From positions 1 to 5,925 of IMG/VR virus record IMGVR_UViG_3300014846_000028: a DNA stretch of 5,925 bases; one strand, 5' to 3'. This document shows positions 1 to 3,591 of the stretch, in pieces. The position numbers and the translations under genes are program-made. The stretch comes from a virus. Lineage: Duplodnaviria; Heunggongvirae; Uroviricota; Caudoviricetes. The notes beneath the pieces are model-generated. The model was not told the origin of the DNA, did not search any database, and was given only the letters and a program-made list of their open reading frames with translations. How positions within the stretch are numbered: the stretch's first letter is position 1; every line of letters begins with the position of its first letter.

Positions 1-537
1 CTGGCTGCTAAAAAAGTCAGATCGGGCCTGTCGGCTGCCGTTCTGGCACTGATTGCCGTCGGTGCGCCCGCGCCTGATATTCTCGACCAGTTTCTGGATG
101 AAAAAGAGGGTAACCACACTACGGCATACCGCGATGGTTCCGGCATCTGGACCATCTGTCGGGGGGCCACGATGGTGGATGGAAAACCCGTTTTTCCCGG
201 TATGAAACTGTCGAAGGAAAAATGCGACCAGGTCAACGCCATTGAGCGTGATAAGGCGCTGGCATGGGTGGAGAAAAACATCAAAGTGCCATTGAGCGAA
301 CCCCAGAAAGCGGGGATCGCGTCATTCTGTCCGTACAACATTGGTCCCGGTAAGTGTTTCCCGTCGACGTTTTATAAACGAATTAATGCAGGTGATCGCA
401 GGGGAGCGTGTGAGGCGATTCGCTGGTGGATTAAGGACGGTGGCAGAGACTGCCGTATTCGTTCAAACAACTGCTACGGTCAGGTATCCCGTCGTGACCA
501 GGAGAGTGCGCTGGCGTGCTGGGGTATCGACAGATAA
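1..537 (+). CDS. Phage endolysin (T4-lysozyme-like muramidase with N-terminal SAR-type segment), 5'-partial
   Basis: Frame 1 is open from position 1 to TAA at 535-537. The translation from position 1 reads LAAKKVRSGLSAAVLALIAVGAPAPDILDQFLDEKEGNHTTAYRDGSGIWTICRGAT..., a weakly hydrophobic Gly/Ala-rich segment followed by the E-x8-D-x5-T catalytic spacing (EG...RDGSGIWT) of T4-lysozyme-like and phage 21 R-type SAR endolysins. The C-terminal part matches the RrrD/R21 family as recalled. The start codon lies upstream of the window. Confidence 0.9.
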   Translation: MAAKKVRSGLSAAVLALIAVGAPAPDILDQFLDEKEGNHTTAYRDGSGIWTICRGATMVDGKPVFPGMKLSKEKCDQVNAIERDKALAWVEKNIKVPLSEPQKAGIASFCPYNIGPGKCFPSTFYKRINAGDRRGACEAIRWWIKDGGRDCRIRSNNCYGQVSRRDQESALACWGIDR

Positions 538-626
538 GCAGAATATTTTGCTGAAAAATAAGGCATGGCCACGCGGGCGGATAACACGAAATCCTGCGAA
601 CTGGCGAAACGTAAGTGAATAAAAGT

Positions 627-666
627 AAAAACCCCGTTTGTTGGCAGCAAGCGGGGTTTTGTTTTT
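627..666 (+). terminator. Rho-independent terminator (9-bp GC-rich stem AAAACCCCG/CGGGGTTTT followed by TTTTGTTTTT)
   Basis: Perfect inverted repeat AAAACCCCG (627-636) and CGGGGTTTT (652-660) with a T-rich run to 666. It lies about 90 nt after the endolysin stop. An A-run upstream (621-630) would allow function on the minus strand too. Confidence 0.6.
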
Positions 667-731
667 ATGGCAGTAAGCTATGGGAGGCTGCCTTGATTGA
701 TTTTAGCAAACTGATTAGGGAGTTGCGACTC

Positions 732-827
732 ATGATTAGTCAATTACCAAACTGGAAATTTTTGCTGGTCTGGAGCATCCCTTTTTTATGGGTAGTATCC
801 CAGTTAATTGTGGCAATTAAGGGGTAG
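732..827 (+). CDS. Hypothetical small hydrophobic peptide A (31 aa from ATG 732; 44 aa if the in-frame TTG at 693 is used)
   Basis: ATG 732 is preceded by AGGGAG (717-722); the in-frame TTG 693 is preceded by GGGAGG (682-687). Translation is MISQLPNWKFLLVWSIPFLWVVSQLIVAIKG, a single predicted transmembrane segment. Its C-terminus (LIVAIKG) resembles that of peptide C (LVIALKS). Stop TAG 825-827 lies 2 nt before the next start. Confidence 0.25.
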   Translation: MISQLPNWKFLLVWSIPFLWVVSQLIVAIKG

Positions 828-829
828 CT

Positions 830-961
830 ATGTCAGACAAACTCATAACGCCGGCAAAGGTCCTGTGTGTGATTGTCGGTATTTCATTTTCACTAATGCT
901 GGTTGCTCTTTTTCTGTCCCTCGCCTGGGTGATGTTGTCTTCGTCGGGGCTGCTGGGGTGA
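830..961 (+). CDS. Hypothetical small membrane peptide B (43 aa, single predicted TM helix)
   Basis: ATG 830 is preceded by AAGGGG (820-824) at good spacing. Translation is MSDKLITPAKVLCVIVGISFSLMLVALFLSLAWVMLSSSGLLG: a Lys-containing N-terminus followed by a roughly 25-residue hydrophobic core. Stop TGA 959-961 overlaps the GTG start of peptide C. Confidence 0.35.
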   Translation: MSDKLITPAKVLCVIVGISFSLMLVALFLSLAWVMLSSSGLLG

Positions 962-1080
962 CAGTGACTGATGACATCAGCAGAGCGCTGGCTTTTGCTA
1001 TTAAGTGGGTGGCTGTTGGTATTGCTGTGTCTCCGATGCTATATGGGCTGGCAAAACTGGTCATTGCGCTGAAATCGTGA
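958..1080 (+). CDS. Hypothetical small hydrophobic peptide C (about 38-40 aa; GTG start at 958 or 964)
   Basis: Frame-1 ORF ending at TGA 1078-1080, translation (V)TVTDDISRALAFAIKWVAVGIAVSPMLYGLAKLVIALKS. GGGG at 955-958 lies upstream of GTG 964. The core RALAFAIKWVAVGIAV matches peptide D (RAMAFAIRIVAIAVLV), with many differences at third codon positions, which suggests coding constraint in this frame. Confidence 0.3.
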   Translation: MTVTDDISRALAFAIKWVAVGIAVSPMLYGLAKLVIALKS

Positions 1081-1091
1081 ACTTTAAAAAG

Positions 1092-1178
1092 ATGAGTGCT
1101 GAACTTATTCGGGCAATGGCATTTGCCATTCGTATTGTGGCCATTGCTGTTCTGGTCTGGGCAATTCGTTGGTGGTGA
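1092..1178 (+). CDS. Hypothetical small hydrophobic peptide D (28 aa), paralogous to peptide C
   Basis: ATG 1092 to TGA 1176-1178, translation MSAELIRAMAFAIRIVAIAVLVWAIRWW. The stop is 1 nt before the Rz ATG at 1180. There is no strong Shine-Dalgarno, so any translation may depend on coupling to peptide C, which ends 11 nt upstream. Confidence 0.3.
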   Translation: MSAELIRAMAFAIRIVAIAVLVWAIRWW

Positions 1179-1179
1179 T

Positions 1180-1638
1180 ATGAACCGTGTTCTGTGTGTG
1201 GTGATTATTGTCATGCTGGTGGCCTGTGGTGCGCTTAGTCTGGGGCTGAATCATTACCGTGATAACGCCATAACCTACAAAGAGCAGCGCGATAAAAAAG
1301 TCAGTGAGCTGGAGCAGGCAAATGCAACCATTACTGATATGCAGCAGCGCCAGCGTGATGTTGCTGCACTTGATGCCAGATACTCGAGGGAATTAGCCGA
1401 TGCGAGAGCTGAAAATGAAACTCTGCGCGCTGACGTTGCCGCTGGTCGTAAGCGCCTGCGTATCAACGCCACCTGTCCAGGTCCCGTGCGTGAAGCCACC
1501 GGCACCGCCCGCGTGGATAATGCAACCGGCCCCCGACTGGCAGACACCGCCGCATTATTTCACCCTCAGAGAGCGGTTGATGACAATGCAGAAGCAGCTG
1601 GAAGGGGCGCAGGAATATATCCGCACTCAGTGCACTAA
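1180..1638 (+). CDS. Rz: i-spanin Rz (lambda Rz-like), with C-terminal region out of frame after about codon 125
   Basis: Translation [99 protein letters not shown]...RLADTA aligns closely with lambda Rz as recalled ([39 protein letters not shown]...RLADTAERDYFTLRERL...). After RLADTA this frame reads unrelated sequence ([28 protein letters not shown]) to TGA 1636-1638, while the conserved Rz C-terminus (YFTLRERLMTMQKQLEGAQEYIRTQC) appears in the +1 frame. Confidence 0.8.
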   Translation: [152 protein letters not shown]

Positions 1639-1669
1639 GCTGGCTTTTTATTATCCGGAGAATGCATGA
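1400..1669 (+). CDS. Rz1: o-spanin Rz1 lipoprotein embedded in Rz (+1 frame); here the frame runs on into the Rz C-terminal domain (89-aa fusion ORF)
   Basis: Translation MRELKMKLCALTLPLVVSACVSTPPVQVPCVKPPAPPAWIMQPAPDWQTPP... has a signal peptide, a lipobox (LVVSAC) and a Pro-rich mature region matching lambda Rz1 as recalled (MLKLKMMLCVMMLPLVVVGCTSKQSVSQCVKPPPPPAWIMQPPPDWQTPLNGIISPSERG). Instead of stopping after DWQTP it continues as HYFTLRERLMTMQKQLEGAQEYIRTQCTKLAFYYPENA to TGA 1667-1669. Confidence 0.55.
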   Translation: MRELKMKLCALTLPLVVSACVSTPPVQVPCVKPPAPPAWIMQPAPDWQTPPHYFTLRERLMTMQKQLEGAQEYIRTQCTKLAFYYPENA

Positions 1670-1890
1670 AGAAATTACTGGTAACCGTAAAGCCTTTTCA
1701 GGGAACAATTCCGTTCCGTATTTTGCAGCGTGGTCGTGTTCTTGTTGAAGGTTCGTTCAGTGGTAAATGTACGCAATTACATTCCCGGACCTTTCAGGTG
1801 AATGCCACGAATGAAGAGCTAACCGTTGAGTGTACGATGAATGCCGCTAAATGCCGCATGGTATCCGCTGCATTACAGCCAGTGTGTTGA
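1666..1890 (+). CDS. Hypothetical protein (74 aa, Cys-containing), start overlapping the spanin-frame stop (ATGA)
   Basis: ATG 1666 is preceded by GGAG (1655-1658). Translation is MKKLLVTVKPFQGTIPFRILQRGRVLVEGSFSGKCTQLHSRTFQVNATNEELTVECTMNAAKCRMVSAALQPVC. I do not recognise a family; the call rests on ORF, RBS and coupling only. Confidence 0.4.
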   Translation: MKKLLVTVKPFQGTIPFRILQRGRVLVEGSFSGKCTQLHSRTFQVNATNEELTVECTMNAAKCRMVSAALQPVC

Positions 1891-2213: not shown

Positions 2214-2234
2214 TTATCTGTGCCGGGAATGAAA

Positions 2235-2561
2235 ATGAAAAGAAATCTTCCGTTAATTATTTTGTTGTCTTCTCTGGTTATGGGCTGTACGCAACATAAA
2301 ACAGATATGCCCCGACAGTTGGTTAAGGCATTACCACAATATCCGGCCTATGCAGCGGCAAATTATATAAAGGGACGGGTTGATGTGAAGTTTGATATTG
2401 GTGCTGATGGTACTGTCACCCGAATTGAGTTTATCCGTTCAGAGCCGCACCATTTGTTTGATGAGCAGGTTGTAAAGGCGATGGCAAAATGGCGATTTGA
2501 GAAGGACAGGCCGTGTAAAGGCGTGAAGAAAACGTTTATCTTTAGTCCTTCTGCACCCTGA
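2235..2561 (+). CDS. Lipoprotein consisting of a signal peptide, lipobox and a TonB C-terminal-like domain (TonB_C family)
   Basis: ATG 2235 (GGGAA upstream; alternative in-frame starts GTG 2220 and ATG 2229). N-terminus MKRNLPLIILLSSLVMGC is a signal peptide with lipobox LVMG/C and Thr at +2. The mature region PQYPAYAAANYIKGRVDVKFDIGADGTVTRIEFIRSEPHHLFDEQVVKAMAKWRFE aligns with the E. coli TonB C-terminal domain as recalled ([56 protein letters not shown]). Stop TGA 2559-2561. Confidence 0.8.
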   Translation: MKRNLPLIILLSSLVMGCTQHKTDMPRQLVKALPQYPAYAAANYIKGRVDVKFDIGADGTVTRIEFIRSEPHHLFDEQVVKAMAKWRFEKDRPCKGVKKTFIFSPSAP

Positions 2562-3300: not shown

Positions 3301-3393
3301 CCCGACCCGGGGGGGGGGATCATCCGGCGTAAAAAACGATCGCTTTGGACACCGCGCCCCCTCTCACGCAGAGAAAAAATTCCCGTTTCAGGG

Positions 3394-3519
3394 CAGTTAA
3401 CATGTTAACTGGCTTCCCGGGCATTTTTGCGGTTTTTATCTTTATTATTCAGTTTGTTGTGCGGAAAAAATGTTAACTGGCTTTTTCAGCAAATGTTAAC
3501 CAGGCAGCAGTTAACATTT
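3394..3519. repeat. Cluster of five GTTAAC-core sites (CAGTTAACAT / ATGTTAACTG in both orientations), including an 18-bp perfect palindrome and a 10-bp inverted repeat; probable terminase-binding (cosB-like) elements
   Basis: Perfect palindrome CAGTTAACATGTTAACTG at 3394-3411; ATGTTAACTGGCTT at 3402-3415 and again at 3470-3483; inverted repeat AAATGTTAAC (3491-3500) and GTTAACATTT (3510-3519) separated by 9 nt. I found only one other GTTAAC in the window (about 2021). The cluster sits between HNH and TerS, with an AT-rich stretch at 3421-3460 between copies. Confidence 0.5.
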
Positions 3520-3591
3520 GCGGCATGAGACGCCGGGAAAAATGGGCTGAACCATACCCGGCTGAGTGCGTTCTGGACCCGGGAGGAGGCT

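What the first reader, a model, noticed from the sequence alone, without database searches (positions are those of the whole stretch)
693..1178. Tight cluster of four tiny hydrophobic ORFs inserted between the endolysin and spanin genes
Canonical lambdoid lysis cassettes run holin, endolysin, Rz/Rz1 with no intervening genes. Here about 640 nt separate the endolysin stop (537) from the Rz start (1180). That gap holds four back-to-back small ORFs of 28 to 44 codons, each predicted to be a single transmembrane peptide. Their spacing looks like translational coupling: A stops 2 nt before the B start, the B stop overlaps the C start, C ends 11 nt before D, and D stops 1 nt before the Rz ATG. Peptides C and D share a clearly similar core (RALAFAIKWVAVGIAV against RAMAFAIRIVAIAVLV) with many synonymous third-position differences. 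Peptides A and C share a similar C-terminus (LIVAIKG against LVIALKS). Those patterns suggest diverged paralogues under coding constraint, not random open frames. Their size and composition resemble small membrane-active peptides such as type I toxins or holin/antiholin-like lysis-timing modulators. None would be called by a standard gene finder with a 60-aa cut-off.
Basis: partly seen in the sequence, partly recalled or inferred. Interest (0 to 1): 0.68.

Follow-up and report, generated by a model that had tools for sequence, protein, structure and literature searches.

The report
Small membrane-peptide genes in lysis cassette
Four tiny genes for membrane-spanning peptides sit between the wall-digesting enzyme and the outer-membrane-breaking protein of an E. 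coli prophage; they are real, conserved and widespread (one is in most Shiga-toxin phages), are already catalogued as hypothetical proteins, and their job is still unknown.

Summary
Four same-strand ORFs (A 693-827, B 830-961, C 958/964-1080, D 1092-1178) fill the gap between a SAR endolysin and Rz, with the stated 2-nt, overlapping, 11-nt and 1-nt junctions. All four are genuine protein-coding genes. Each matches a PHROG family of unknown function. Diverged relatives give dN/dS of 0.04-0.6, and the proposed frame is the lowest-scoring of the six and free of stop codons. None of 74-84 related loci has a broken frame. C and D belong to one superfamily; the A/C C-terminal likeness is not homology. 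They are not new to databases: RefSeq annotates them as hypothetical proteins, and part of the interval occurs in 2039 of 5426 complete E. coli genomes. B lies just upstream of Rz in 276 phage records, including 933W, and has weak ribosome footprints in O157 Sakai. The genes travel as promoterless cassettes behind a conserved hairpin and leader. These cassettes follow at least four endolysin types, and also occur between baseplate genes and after tail genes. Best guess, unproven: late-expressed inner-membrane peptides that modulate lysis. No homology to holins, releasin, spanins, type I toxins or defence proteins was found.

The parts
1..537 (+). 3' part of a SAR-type phage lysozyme (endolysin R). 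Context only; the gene is cut by the window start.
   Evidence: Pfam PF00959, E=2e-24. The N-terminal stretch KKVRSGLSAAVLALIAVGAPAP is rich in Gly, Ala and Ser. RefSeq annotates it as 'lysozyme' downstream of a class II holin.
628..660 (.). GC-rich hairpin followed by a T-run, with an A-run before it (an intrinsic-terminator-like hairpin). Together with the leader at 661-692 it forms the conserved 5' end of the small-ORF cassette.
   Evidence: Terminator scan. The same hairpin precedes A-, C- or D-type ORFs in 16 loci from several genera and in three kinds of context. Six stem pairs keep pairing through changes on both sides.
693..827 (+). ORF A: 44 aa, TTG start, Shine-Dalgarno GGGAGG at 680-685. 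Conserved N-terminal segment IDFSKLIRELRLM..QLPNWKF followed by one TM helix.
   Evidence: phrog_6632, E=1.3e-12. Relatives of 45 aa with GTG or TTG starts occur in phages or genomes of Salmonella, Citrobacter, Providencia, Yersinia, Brenneria, Symbiopectobacterium and Dryocola. dN/dS is 0.17-0.6, and the proposed frame has the lowest ratio of the six and no stops. Intact in 74 of 74 loci. Kyte-Doolittle 2.19.
830..961 (+). ORF B: 43 aa, ATG start, short polar N-terminus then a long hydrophobic stretch.
   Evidence: phrog_4906, E=4.5e-21. Full-length tblastn matches in 276 phage records, mostly Stx phages. It lies directly upstream of Rz in 933W and P27. dN/dS is 0.17-0.5 for pairs that differ at more than 10% of bases, and the proposed frame is best. 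The Sakai homologue XECs191 has RIBOseq signal (PMC5597208 S2 Table). EDL933_1392 is predicted to be inner membrane with 1 TM (PMC4765031 supplement).
958..1080 (+). ORF C: 40 aa from GTG 958 (overlapping the B stop as GTGA), or 38 aa from GTG 964. A shortened member of the C/D superfamily.
   Evidence: phrog_1115, E=1e-24. 69 protein clusters in E. coli and Salmonella. dN/dS is 0.04-0.2 against Salmonella relatives, with 5/1/20 differences by codon position. Full-length relatives are 48-60 aa and begin MKNGLELKAP. RefSeq's 51-aa version starts at a CTG at window 925 inside B.
1092..1178 (+). ORF D: 28 aa, ATG start, C-terminus IRWW. Its stop lies 1 nt before the Rz ATG.
   Evidence: phrog_4493, E=3.8e-6, and phrog_3246, E=9e-5. 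Relatives occur in GER2 and phiSTEC1575-Stx2k. GER2 against phiSTEC1575 gives pN/pS 0.08 with 4/0/20 differences by codon position. Intact in 81 of 81 loci, one with an in-frame 3-nt insertion. A 28-aa-like form, MSADFIRAVAFAIRLVAVAVLIWAVRWW, occurs in P0082.
1180..1638 (+). Rz (i-spanin), the downstream partner of the cassette. In this window it is frameshifted near 1550.
   Evidence: Pfam PF03245 and phrog_13. The window has a 5-nt deletion absent from all 79 related loci aligned there.
1400..1669 (+). Rz1 (o-spanin) frame. The same 5-nt deletion fuses it to the Rz C-terminal coding part.
   Evidence: Pfam PF06085 on residues 20-50 and PF03245 on residues 52-78 of the same ORF.

Best explanation
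The interval holds four real genes for single-pass inner-membrane micro-proteins from three families: A, B, and the C/D superfamily.

They belong to a promoterless, modular cassette type. The cassette is a terminator-like hairpin, a conserved leader of about 30 nt with a Shine-Dalgarno sequence, and then one or more tiny TM ORFs. Temperate phages of Enterobacterales shuffle it between late-operon sites. Here four modules are stacked between the SAR endolysin and Rz, and the last is coupled to Rz.

Inferred mechanism:
- No promoter of their own was found and a hairpin lies in front. They should therefore be made only when Q-antiterminated late transcription reads through, together with the lysis proteins.
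- They would insert in the inner membrane.
- Their conserved N-terminal juxtamembrane segments would then let them act as non-essential modulators of envelope disruption, affecting lysis timing or efficiency through the holin, SAR-endolysin or spanin step.

Shown: the genes are real and under purifying selection, they are hydrophobic, they are modular, they have a conserved leader, and they are closely linked to Rz.
Inferred: late-only expression, membrane location, and any role in lysis.
For: Coding:
- All four hit PHROG families.
- dN/dS is 0.04-0.6, and the proposed frame is the best of six.
- No frame is broken in 74-84 loci.
- The B homologue has RIBOseq signal.

Membrane: Kyte-Doolittle windows of 1.9-2.9. 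PredictProtein places B homologues in the inner membrane.

Linkage to lysis:
- B sits 7 nt or less before Rz in 933W, P27 and PhiR12_3.
- A-, C- or D-type genes end 1-10 nt before Rz in SPN3UB, Salmonella prophages, GER2, Citrobacter and Escherichia sp..
- The cassettes follow endolysins of at least four types: PF00959, GH108, M15 and CHAP, plus one unclassified.

Late-only expression:
- No + strand sigma-70-like site lies between 400 and 2100.
- No + strand promoter-like site lies between the hairpin and the ORFs in relatives.
- A conserved hairpin lies immediately upstream.

Sequence-specific action: in A the N-terminal 27 residues are conserved while the TM part varies. In C/D the motif AP.T.E[IL]..A.AFAI[KR] is conserved while the TM part and C-terminus vary.
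Against: - There is no homology to any characterised lysis protein, and no Pfam or NCBIfam hit.
- Presence and combination vary between otherwise similar phages, so none of the genes is essential. Observed orders include R-A-B-Rz, R-C-B-Rz, R-ant-B-Rz, R-A-Rz and R-C-Rz, and K-12 Qin has none.
- A-type genes also lie between baseplate genes V and W in SEN34, Rac-SA53, Yersinia and Dryocola, and after an LPD38 protein. C-type genes also lie after a tail-fibre gene at a prophage end. Lysis linkage may therefore only reflect a favoured insertion site.
- The cassettes occur with both SAR and cytoplasmic endolysins, so they are not specific to one lysis route.
- No expression data after prophage induction were found.
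Confidence: 0.4

Rival explanations
1. The peptides are accessory cargo unrelated to lysis. They are late-expressed tail-anchored peptides that bind a host membrane or membrane-proximal protein. Possible roles are blocking superinfection or DNA entry late in infection, or altering a transporter, protease or division protein. The R-Rz junction would simply be one tolerated insertion site.
For: - The same cassette, with the same hairpin and leader, sits between baseplate genes, after an LPD38 protein and after a tail-fibre gene.
- Presence or absence and order vary freely.
- The R-Rz site also receives ant genes.
- The N-terminal segments are conserved while the TM parts vary, which suggests a specific partner.
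Against: - B was seen only directly upstream of Rz or of a small lipoprotein, across 276 phage records and the fetched loci.
- Most contexts found are lysis cassettes.
- No promoter was found that would allow expression in the lysogen.
- No PADLOC hit.
Confidence: 0.3
2. The peptides are type I toxin-like. Each would be a toxic membrane peptide whose translation is held down by a small antisense RNA. That RNA would start at a - strand promoter over the ORF start and end at the two-way hairpin.
For: - The peptides have the size and hydrophobicity of Hok, TisB or ZorO-type toxins.
- Full-length C/D relatives carry a conserved - strand promoter-like element over their start codon, TAGTCA or TGGACA, then N17-18, then TATACT. 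It points at the hairpin about 65 nt away.
- That block is conserved at nucleotide level while the rest of the gene has pS near 0.6.
- A small stem may cover the Shine-Dalgarno sequence.
Against: - The window's own C and D lack that block.
- The only - strand promoter-like site in the window (836-807) is at chance level: 2 sites found against 2.3 expected. By my reading of the 933W peptide start (ISDKL rather than MSDKL), the site should not be kept in 933W B homologues. This was not checked at DNA level.
- No toxin promoter was found.
- Four co-directional ORFs coupled to Rz inside a late operon are unlike known type I loci.
- No Rfam antitoxin or sRNA match at threshold.
Confidence: 0.08
3. 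The interval matters mainly as nucleic acid. It would act as a terminator or insulator and as a conserved linker that promotes recombination between lysis modules. The ORFs would be tolerated by-products or recombination scars.
For: - The hairpin and leader are the most widely conserved nucleotides.
- The window's C and D are N-terminally shortened, recombined forms.
- D combines a C-family N-terminal motif with an RWW end like that of A-type genes.
- The RWW codons double as an SD-like GGTGG for the next gene.
Against: - Purifying selection on the peptide sequences is strong, with pN/pS down to 0.04-0.08 and third-position bias.
- Every recombinant form keeps an open frame, and an indel in D is in frame.
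- Independent full-length relatives of similar small size exist. Only small proteins of 20-87 aa were found in 1.84 billion representatives.
Confidence: 0.07
4. The four ORFs are remnants of one larger disrupted gene, or shadows of the 123-aa ORF on the opposite strand (843-1214).
For: The - strand ORF is open across B, C and D. Its frame has the second-lowest pN/pS.
Against: - The + frame always has the lower pN/pS.
- The antisense product is not hydrophobic.
- No relative of A-D longer than 87 aa exists.
- Each module occurs alone in other phages.
Confidence: 0.02

Closest known systems
Accessory small membrane proteins of phage lysis cassettes (antiholins such as lambda S107 and phage 21 S71, P2 LysA, P1 LydB). 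Named from my own knowledge.
   Same: Small inner-membrane proteins encoded inside the lysis gene cluster. Non-essential, and co-expressed with holin, endolysin and spanin.
   Different: No sequence homology. A-D lie downstream of the endolysin rather than with the holin. They have one TM helix and 28-44 residues, and they also occur outside lysis cassettes. No timing phenotype is known.
Mu gp25 releasin (DUF2730), PMC9239132
   Same: A membrane-anchored protein encoded within a few genes downstream of a SAR endolysin, acting through a cytoplasmic segment.
   Different: Releasin is 99 aa, with an N-terminal TM helix and a 73-aa anionic cytoplasmic domain. A-D are 28-44 aa with the TM helix at the C-terminal side. 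They have no DUF2730 hit and also accompany cytoplasmic (non-SAR) endolysins.
Type I toxins (Hok, TisB, Ldr, ZorO). Named from my own knowledge.
   Same: Peptides of 30-50 aa with one hydrophobic helix, often carried on prophages.
   Different: No antisense RNA gene, own promoter or Rfam match in the window. The ORFs are arranged as a co-directional, translationally coupled string inside a late operon.
Morons of lambdoid phages (lambda bor and lom; the HK97/HK022 morons of Hendrix and colleagues). Named from my own knowledge.
   Same: Extra genes present or absent between conserved neighbours of the late operon, exchanged between phages as small modules.
   Different: Classical morons carry their own promoter and a downstream terminator and are expressed in the lysogen. 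These cassettes have no detectable promoter, and the hairpin lies upstream.
PHROG families 6632, 4906, 1115, 4493 and 3246, and RefSeq hypothetical proteins WP_001043230, WP_001280935, WP_042004856 and WP_032140280
   Same: These are the same genes. HMM hits are at E=1e-6 to 1e-24, and the annotated CDSs are identical or nearly so.
   Different: None of these entries has a known function. RefSeq's A (70 aa, starting upstream through the hairpin) and C (51 aa, CTG start inside B) probably have wrong starts.

Membership tests
phrog_6632 (A family) | Profile match over a peptide of about 45 aa: conserved N-terminal segment, then a TM helix, with a non-ATG start | tested here: met
   E=1.3e-12 over profile positions 2-43 of 45. 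The SEN34 relative matches 1-45 at E=1.9e-24. All relatives start with GTG or TTG.
phrog_4906 (B family) | Profile match over the whole 43-49 aa peptide | tested here: met
   E=4.5e-21, protein residues 1-43 against profile positions 7-49.
phrog_1115 / 4493 / 3246 (C/D superfamily) | Profile match including the juxtamembrane motif A.AFAI[KR] | tested here: met
   C: E=1e-24, 8e-22 and 9e-17. D: E=0.053, 3.8e-6 and 9e-5. The alignment has A30 and A39 invariant and A32, F33, A34 and I35 nearly invariant.
Holin / antiholin | Homology to a known holin family | tested here: not met
   No Pfam, NCBIfam or function-annotated PHROG hit for A-D at E<=1.
Holin / antiholin | Small membrane protein with at least one TM helix encoded in the lysis cassette | tested here: met
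   Kyte-Doolittle 1.9-2.9. Position between R and Rz.
Holin / antiholin | Controls lysis timing or forms membrane holes | not testable with these tools
   Needs deletion and expression experiments.
Releasin (Mu gp25, DUF2730) | DUF2730 domain: an N-terminal TM helix plus a cytoplasmic domain of about 70 aa | tested here: not met
   No Pfam hit. The peptides are 28-44 aa. Releasin features are taken from PMC9239132.
Spanin (Rz/Rz1 or u-spanin) | A periplasmic coiled-coil domain (i-spanin) or a lipobox (o- or u-spanin) | tested here: not met
   A-D have no lipobox and at most about 8 residues beyond the TM helix. The real Rz and Rz1 follow at 1180 and 1400.
Type I toxin-antitoxin | Small hydrophobic toxin peptide | tested here: met
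Type I toxin-antitoxin | Antisense or divergent sRNA gene with its own promoter and terminator | tested here: inconclusive
   Window: one - strand promoter-like site at chance level and no Rfam hit. Full-length C/D relatives: a conserved - strand promoter-like block facing the hairpin. No expression data.
Type I toxin-antitoxin | Own promoter for the toxin mRNA | tested here: not met
   No + strand sigma-70-like site between 400 and 2100, or between hairpin and ORF in relatives.
Moron (lambdoid late-operon insertion) | Present or absent between conserved neighbours in related phages | tested here: met
Moron (lambdoid late-operon insertion) | Own promoter upstream and terminator downstream | tested here: not met
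   No promoter was found. The hairpin is upstream and no terminator follows D.
Known anti-phage defence proteins (PADLOC) | HMM match | tested here: not met
   No hits at E<=0.1.

The most novel reading that the evidence does not exclude
The hairpin-led micro-cassettes encode a previously unrecognised class of lysis-cassette components. These would be tail-anchored peptides of 28-60 aa, with B present in most Stx phages. They would tune the holin, endolysin or spanin step, or the membrane state, at the moment of lysis. They would therefore influence the timing of Shiga-toxin and virion release.
Probability: 0.2. Interest if true: 0.75.

Novelty: new member of a known kind. Interest (0 to 1): 0.45.

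Why it matters
Lysis cassettes of lambdoid and Stx phages are usually described as holin, endolysin and Rz/Rz1. This analysis shows that a large share of E. coli prophages carry one to four extra conserved membrane-peptide genes at the R-Rz junction. One of them (B) is left unannotated in the 933W reference record.

If any of them affects lysis timing, it would bear on phage and Shiga-toxin release. If not, they are a clean example of promoterless micro-gene cassettes that move between late-operon sites, and a set of well-supported micro-proteins for functional study.

The practical output is corrected gene starts, family definitions and a short list of experiments.

Tried and rejected
A concatenated B+C query worked.
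- A scan of GTDB species genomes with the C/D alignment found nothing. The A alignment gave 7 loci.
- An IMG/VR scan with the A alignment returned only near-identical copies.
- Pfam, NCBIfam and PADLOC gave no hits for A-D.
- Rfam gave nothing at threshold. The only signals were sub-threshold 'rimP leader' hits on the - strand over the hairpin in three relatives, which I treat as terminator-like noise.
- Literature searches by RefSeq accession and by peptide string found nothing in main texts. One locus-tag search returned only irrelevant hits. A UPEC small-proteome preprint was not held.
- K-12 Qin has no insert between rrrQ and rzpQ, so the K-12 small proteins YnfQ, YnfR and YnfS are unrelated.
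- Rejected: a remnant of a larger gene.
- Rejected: the antisense 123-aa ORF.
- Rejected: the alternative frame ORF at 971-1072. It appears only as frameshift variants such as P0056 and P0067.
- Rejected: A/C C-terminal homology.
- Rejected: a releasin-like role tied to SAR endolysins, because the cassettes also follow cytoplasmic GH108 and M15 endolysins.
- Structure prediction was not run. A single helix would not discriminate between the hypotheses.
Full report
**What the window is.** It is part of the late region of a lambdoid E. coli prophage. In order it holds:
- the 3' part of a SAR-type lysozyme, ending at 537 (PF00959);
- the interval in question;
- Rz at 1180-1638, with the Rz1 frame at 1400-1669;
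- a 74-aa ORF;
- a gene for a lipoprotein with a TonB C-terminal domain;
- an HNH endonuclease, then the small and large terminase subunits.

The closest records are E. coli chromosomes such as strain 55989, at 99.8% identity.

**The observation.**
- A runs 693-827. It has a TTG start, and a GGGAGG lies 7 nt upstream.
- B runs 830-961.
- C runs from GTG 958 (overlapping the B stop as GTGA) or GTG 964 to 1080.
- D runs 1092-1178.
- The Rz ATG is at 1180.

Each peptide has one strongly hydrophobic 19-residue window, with Kyte-Doolittle values of 1.9-2.9. Shuffled versions of the interval never reach full ORF coverage.

**Are they genes?** Yes, on four lines of evidence.

1. All four match PHROG families of unknown function.
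   - A matches phrog_6632.
   - B matches phrog_4906.
   - C matches phrog_1115, 3246 and 4493.
   - D matches phrog_4493 and 3246.
2. Diverged relatives show purifying selection.
   - A against relatives in Salmonella phages and Rac-SA53 gives dN/dS of 0.17-0.6.
   - B against Stx-phage and GH108-cassette relatives gives 0.17-0.5 for pairs that differ at more than 10% of bases.
   - C against Salmonella relatives gives 0.04-0.2.
   - The two D-type relatives GER2 and phiSTEC1575-Stx2k give 0.08.
   - Differences pile up at third codon positions: 5/1/20 and 5/4/25 for C, and 4/0/20 for D.
   - In all 11 comparisons the proposed frame has the lowest pN/pS of the six frames and no stop codon.
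   - The open 123-aa antisense ORF (843-1214) is the usual shadow frame, and it scores worse.
3. Across 74-84 related IMG/VR and GenBank loci, no copy of A, B, C or D is broken. The only length change is an in-frame 3-nt insertion in D.
4. There is experimental support for B. Its homologue in O157:H7 Sakai is XECs191, one of the intergenic ORFs reported as translated. In LB its RIBOseq RPKM was 12.6, its ribosomal coverage value 0.43 and its coverage 0.55 (PMC5597208 S2 Table). The signal is weak. The culture was not induced, and by my own inference reads may map to several prophages. The EDL933 homologue EDL933_1392 is predicted to be an inner-membrane protein with one TM helix (PMC4765031 supplement).

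**Family relationships.** C and D are members of one superfamily, shown by the alignment and by cross-hits to the same PHROGs.
- Full-length relatives are 37-60 aa. They share the pattern MK(N)G.E..AP.T.E[IL]..A.AFAI[KR], then a variable TM helix, then one of three endings: KS, RWW or ALK.
- The window's C and D are shortened, recombined forms. C has lost the MKNGLELKAP head and its own ATG. D carries a third head variant, MSAELIRA, which is also found joined to a C-type helix (P0048) and to a D-type helix (P0082).
- A profile search of 1.84 billion representative proteins found only 21 clusters. All are 20-87 aa and none is fused to a larger domain. The interval is therefore not a remnant of a bigger gene.
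- The A family keeps its first 27 residues almost unchanged from Escherichia to Yersinia, Brenneria and Providencia, while its TM helix varies.

**How common and how modular.**
- Part of the interval occurs in 2039 of 5426 complete E. coli genomes, and the whole of it in 587.
- RefSeq already annotates B, C and D, and sometimes A, as hypothetical proteins.
- B gives full-length matches in 276 phage records, nearly all Stx phages. These include 933W, VT2-Sakai, P27 and phi24B. B lies between ant and Rz in 933W, P27 and P13374 and is unannotated in the 933W record.

The modules combine freely:

| Order | Where seen |
|---|---|
| R-A-B-Rz | L006 |
| R-C-B-Rz | PhiR12_3 |
| R-C-B-C-D-Rz | L012 |
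| R-ant-A'-B-C-D-Rz | PhiR5_1 |
| R-A-Rz | SPN3UB, Citrobacter, Escherichia sp. |
| R-C-Rz | Salmonella prophages |
| R-D-Rz | GER2 |
| no insert | K-12 Qin |

The same genes follow unrelated endolysins.
- After a GH108 endolysin, C and B are followed by a 60-aa lipoprotein instead of Rz.
- After an M15 peptidase comes a D-type gene and the same lipoprotein.
- After a CHAP-domain protein comes an A-type gene.

They also occur outside lysis cassettes.
- A-type genes lie between baseplate genes V and W in SEN34, Rac-SA53 and Yersinia. In Dryocola a C-like ORF, a 34-aa TM ORF and an A-like ORF sit there together.
- A-type genes also follow an LPD38 large polyvalent protein.
- A C-type gene follows a tail-fibre gene at a prophage end.

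**A conserved cassette leader.** In all these contexts the first small ORF is preceded by the same unit:
- a GC-rich hairpin with a T-run (628-660 in the window);
- a leader close to TTTCTGCACCTTGAATAAGGCAAGGGAGAAC;
- a GTG or ATG start.

Six stem pairs of the hairpin keep pairing through changes on both sides. A second short stem over the Shine-Dalgarno sequence is predicted but hardly varies, so it stays unproven.

No + strand sigma-70-like promoter was found between the endolysin and Rz here, or between the hairpin and the ORFs in relatives.

The C-terminal RWW codons of A- and D-type genes (cgttggtggtga) place a GGTGG a few bases before the next gene's ATG. This may explain why that ending recurs in two families.

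**Mechanism.**

What is shown:
- The genes are real and are selected as peptides.
- The peptides are hydrophobic.
- They have sequence-specific N-terminal segments.
- They have no detectable promoter and follow a terminator-like hairpin.
- The last gene in the string always ends 1-10 nt before Rz or its replacement.

What I infer:
- They are transcribed only by Q-antiterminated late transcription.
- They are translated with the lysis proteins.
- They insert in the inner membrane.
- They act as dispensable modulators of envelope disruption.

I hold the functional part at roughly one in three. The main rival is that they are late-expressed accessory peptides with a host target unrelated to lysis. 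It is almost as likely, because A- and C-type cassettes also sit in tail and baseplate modules.

A type I toxin reading has limited support. Full-length C/D relatives carry a conserved - strand promoter-like block over their start codon that faces the two-way hairpin. However, the window's copies lack this block, no toxin promoter exists, and no RNA family matches.

**Comparison with known systems.**
- There is no homology to holins, antiholins or spanins.
- They are not releasins. Mu gp25 is 99 aa with the DUF2730 domain, and these cassettes also accompany non-SAR endolysins.
- They have no PADLOC match.
- They resemble morons in being optional inserts between conserved late genes. They lack the defining promoter, and the hairpin lies upstream rather than downstream.
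- The comparative study of Stx-phage lysis cassettes that I read describes only S, R and Rz/Rz1 (PMC8136144).

**Verdict.** This is a correct observation of real, conserved micro-protein genes. They are already in RefSeq and PHROGs as proteins of unknown function, so the sequences are not new. Their function, their hairpin-led modular organisation and the near-universal presence of B in Stx phages have not been described in the literature I could search. Interest is moderate.

Noticed in passing
window 1545-1555 (Rz 1180-1638; Rz1 frame 1400-1669): The window has a 5-nt deletion (CACCG[CTGAA]CGGGATT becomes CACCGCCGCATT) that is absent from all 79 related loci aligned there. It frameshifts Rz and fuses the Rz1 frame to the Rz C-terminal coding part. 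The spanin of this prophage copy is therefore probably defective, unless the deletion is a sequencing error.
   Followed up: yes
window 621-692; also L089 1863-1943, L099 2908-2988, L091 2429-2509, L193 2923-3003 and others: A terminator-like hairpin plus a leader of about 30 nt (CACCTTGAATAAGGCAAGGGAGAAC) is conserved in front of A-, C- or D-type micro-ORFs. It occurs in phages of at least seven genera and in lysis, baseplate and tail contexts. The stem shows compensatory changes.
   Followed up: yes
L089 1971-1942, L099 3037-3008, L104 3001-2972 (- strand); equivalent block in L108 and L109: A conserved - strand promoter-like element (TAGTCA or TGGACA, N17-18, TATACT or TATAAT) overlies the start of full-length C/D genes. 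It points at the hairpin about 65 nt away, so it could give an antisense RNA of about 100 nt. The block is absent from the window's C and D.
   Followed up: partly
window 2229-2561, promoter-like site 2175-2202: A 110-aa lipoprotein with a TonB C-terminal domain (PF03544) has its own promoter-like site with an extended -10. It looks like a classical moron. PHROGs labels its family (phrog_1267) 'Rz-like spanin', which is probably a mislabel.
   Followed up: partly
window 1666-1890: A 74-aa ORF starts inside the end of the Rz1-frame ORF. It is annotated as hypothetical in RefSeq, matches only positions 100-172 of the 291-position phrog_2571, and has a relative in a Salmonella prophage (L098 4098-4313).
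   Followed up: no
window 3304-3317 and 3394-3521: A run of nine G lies just after the HNH gene. Five copies of (A)ATGTTAAC(TG), in both orientations, lie upstream of the small terminase gene. These are likely terminase or cos recognition sites.
   Followed up: partly
L094 3264-3461, L104 3289-3486, L109 2086-2268: In cassettes with GH108 or M15 endolysins, the B- or D-type gene is followed by a 60-aa lipoprotein (phrog_7528, lipobox LVGC) that starts with the same ATGAACCG as Rz. No i-spanin gene is evident, so how these phages breach the outer membrane is unclear.
   Followed up: partly
L090 2229-2345, L101 2708-2812: Another tiny hydrophobic ORF (34-38 aa, motif DG(W/R)..GWGW) overlaps the 3' end of the endolysin gene in Salmonella phages. 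It gives a weak hit to phrog_14810.
   Followed up: no
window 925-1080 and 615-827: RefSeq's starts look wrong for two of the genes. The 51-aa C begins at a CTG inside B. The 70-aa A begins upstream and reads through the hairpin. Conservation in relatives begins at VTDD (964) for C and at the TTG (693) for A.
   Followed up: yes
window 1167-1182; L090 2627-2642; L108 and L109 2073-2088: The RWW-stop codons ending A- and D-type genes (cgttggtggtga) place an SD-like GGTGG 4-5 nt before the ATG of the next gene (Rz, gpW-like or lipoprotein). This suggests the peptide C-terminus is partly dictated by the downstream ribosome-binding site.
   Followed up: partly
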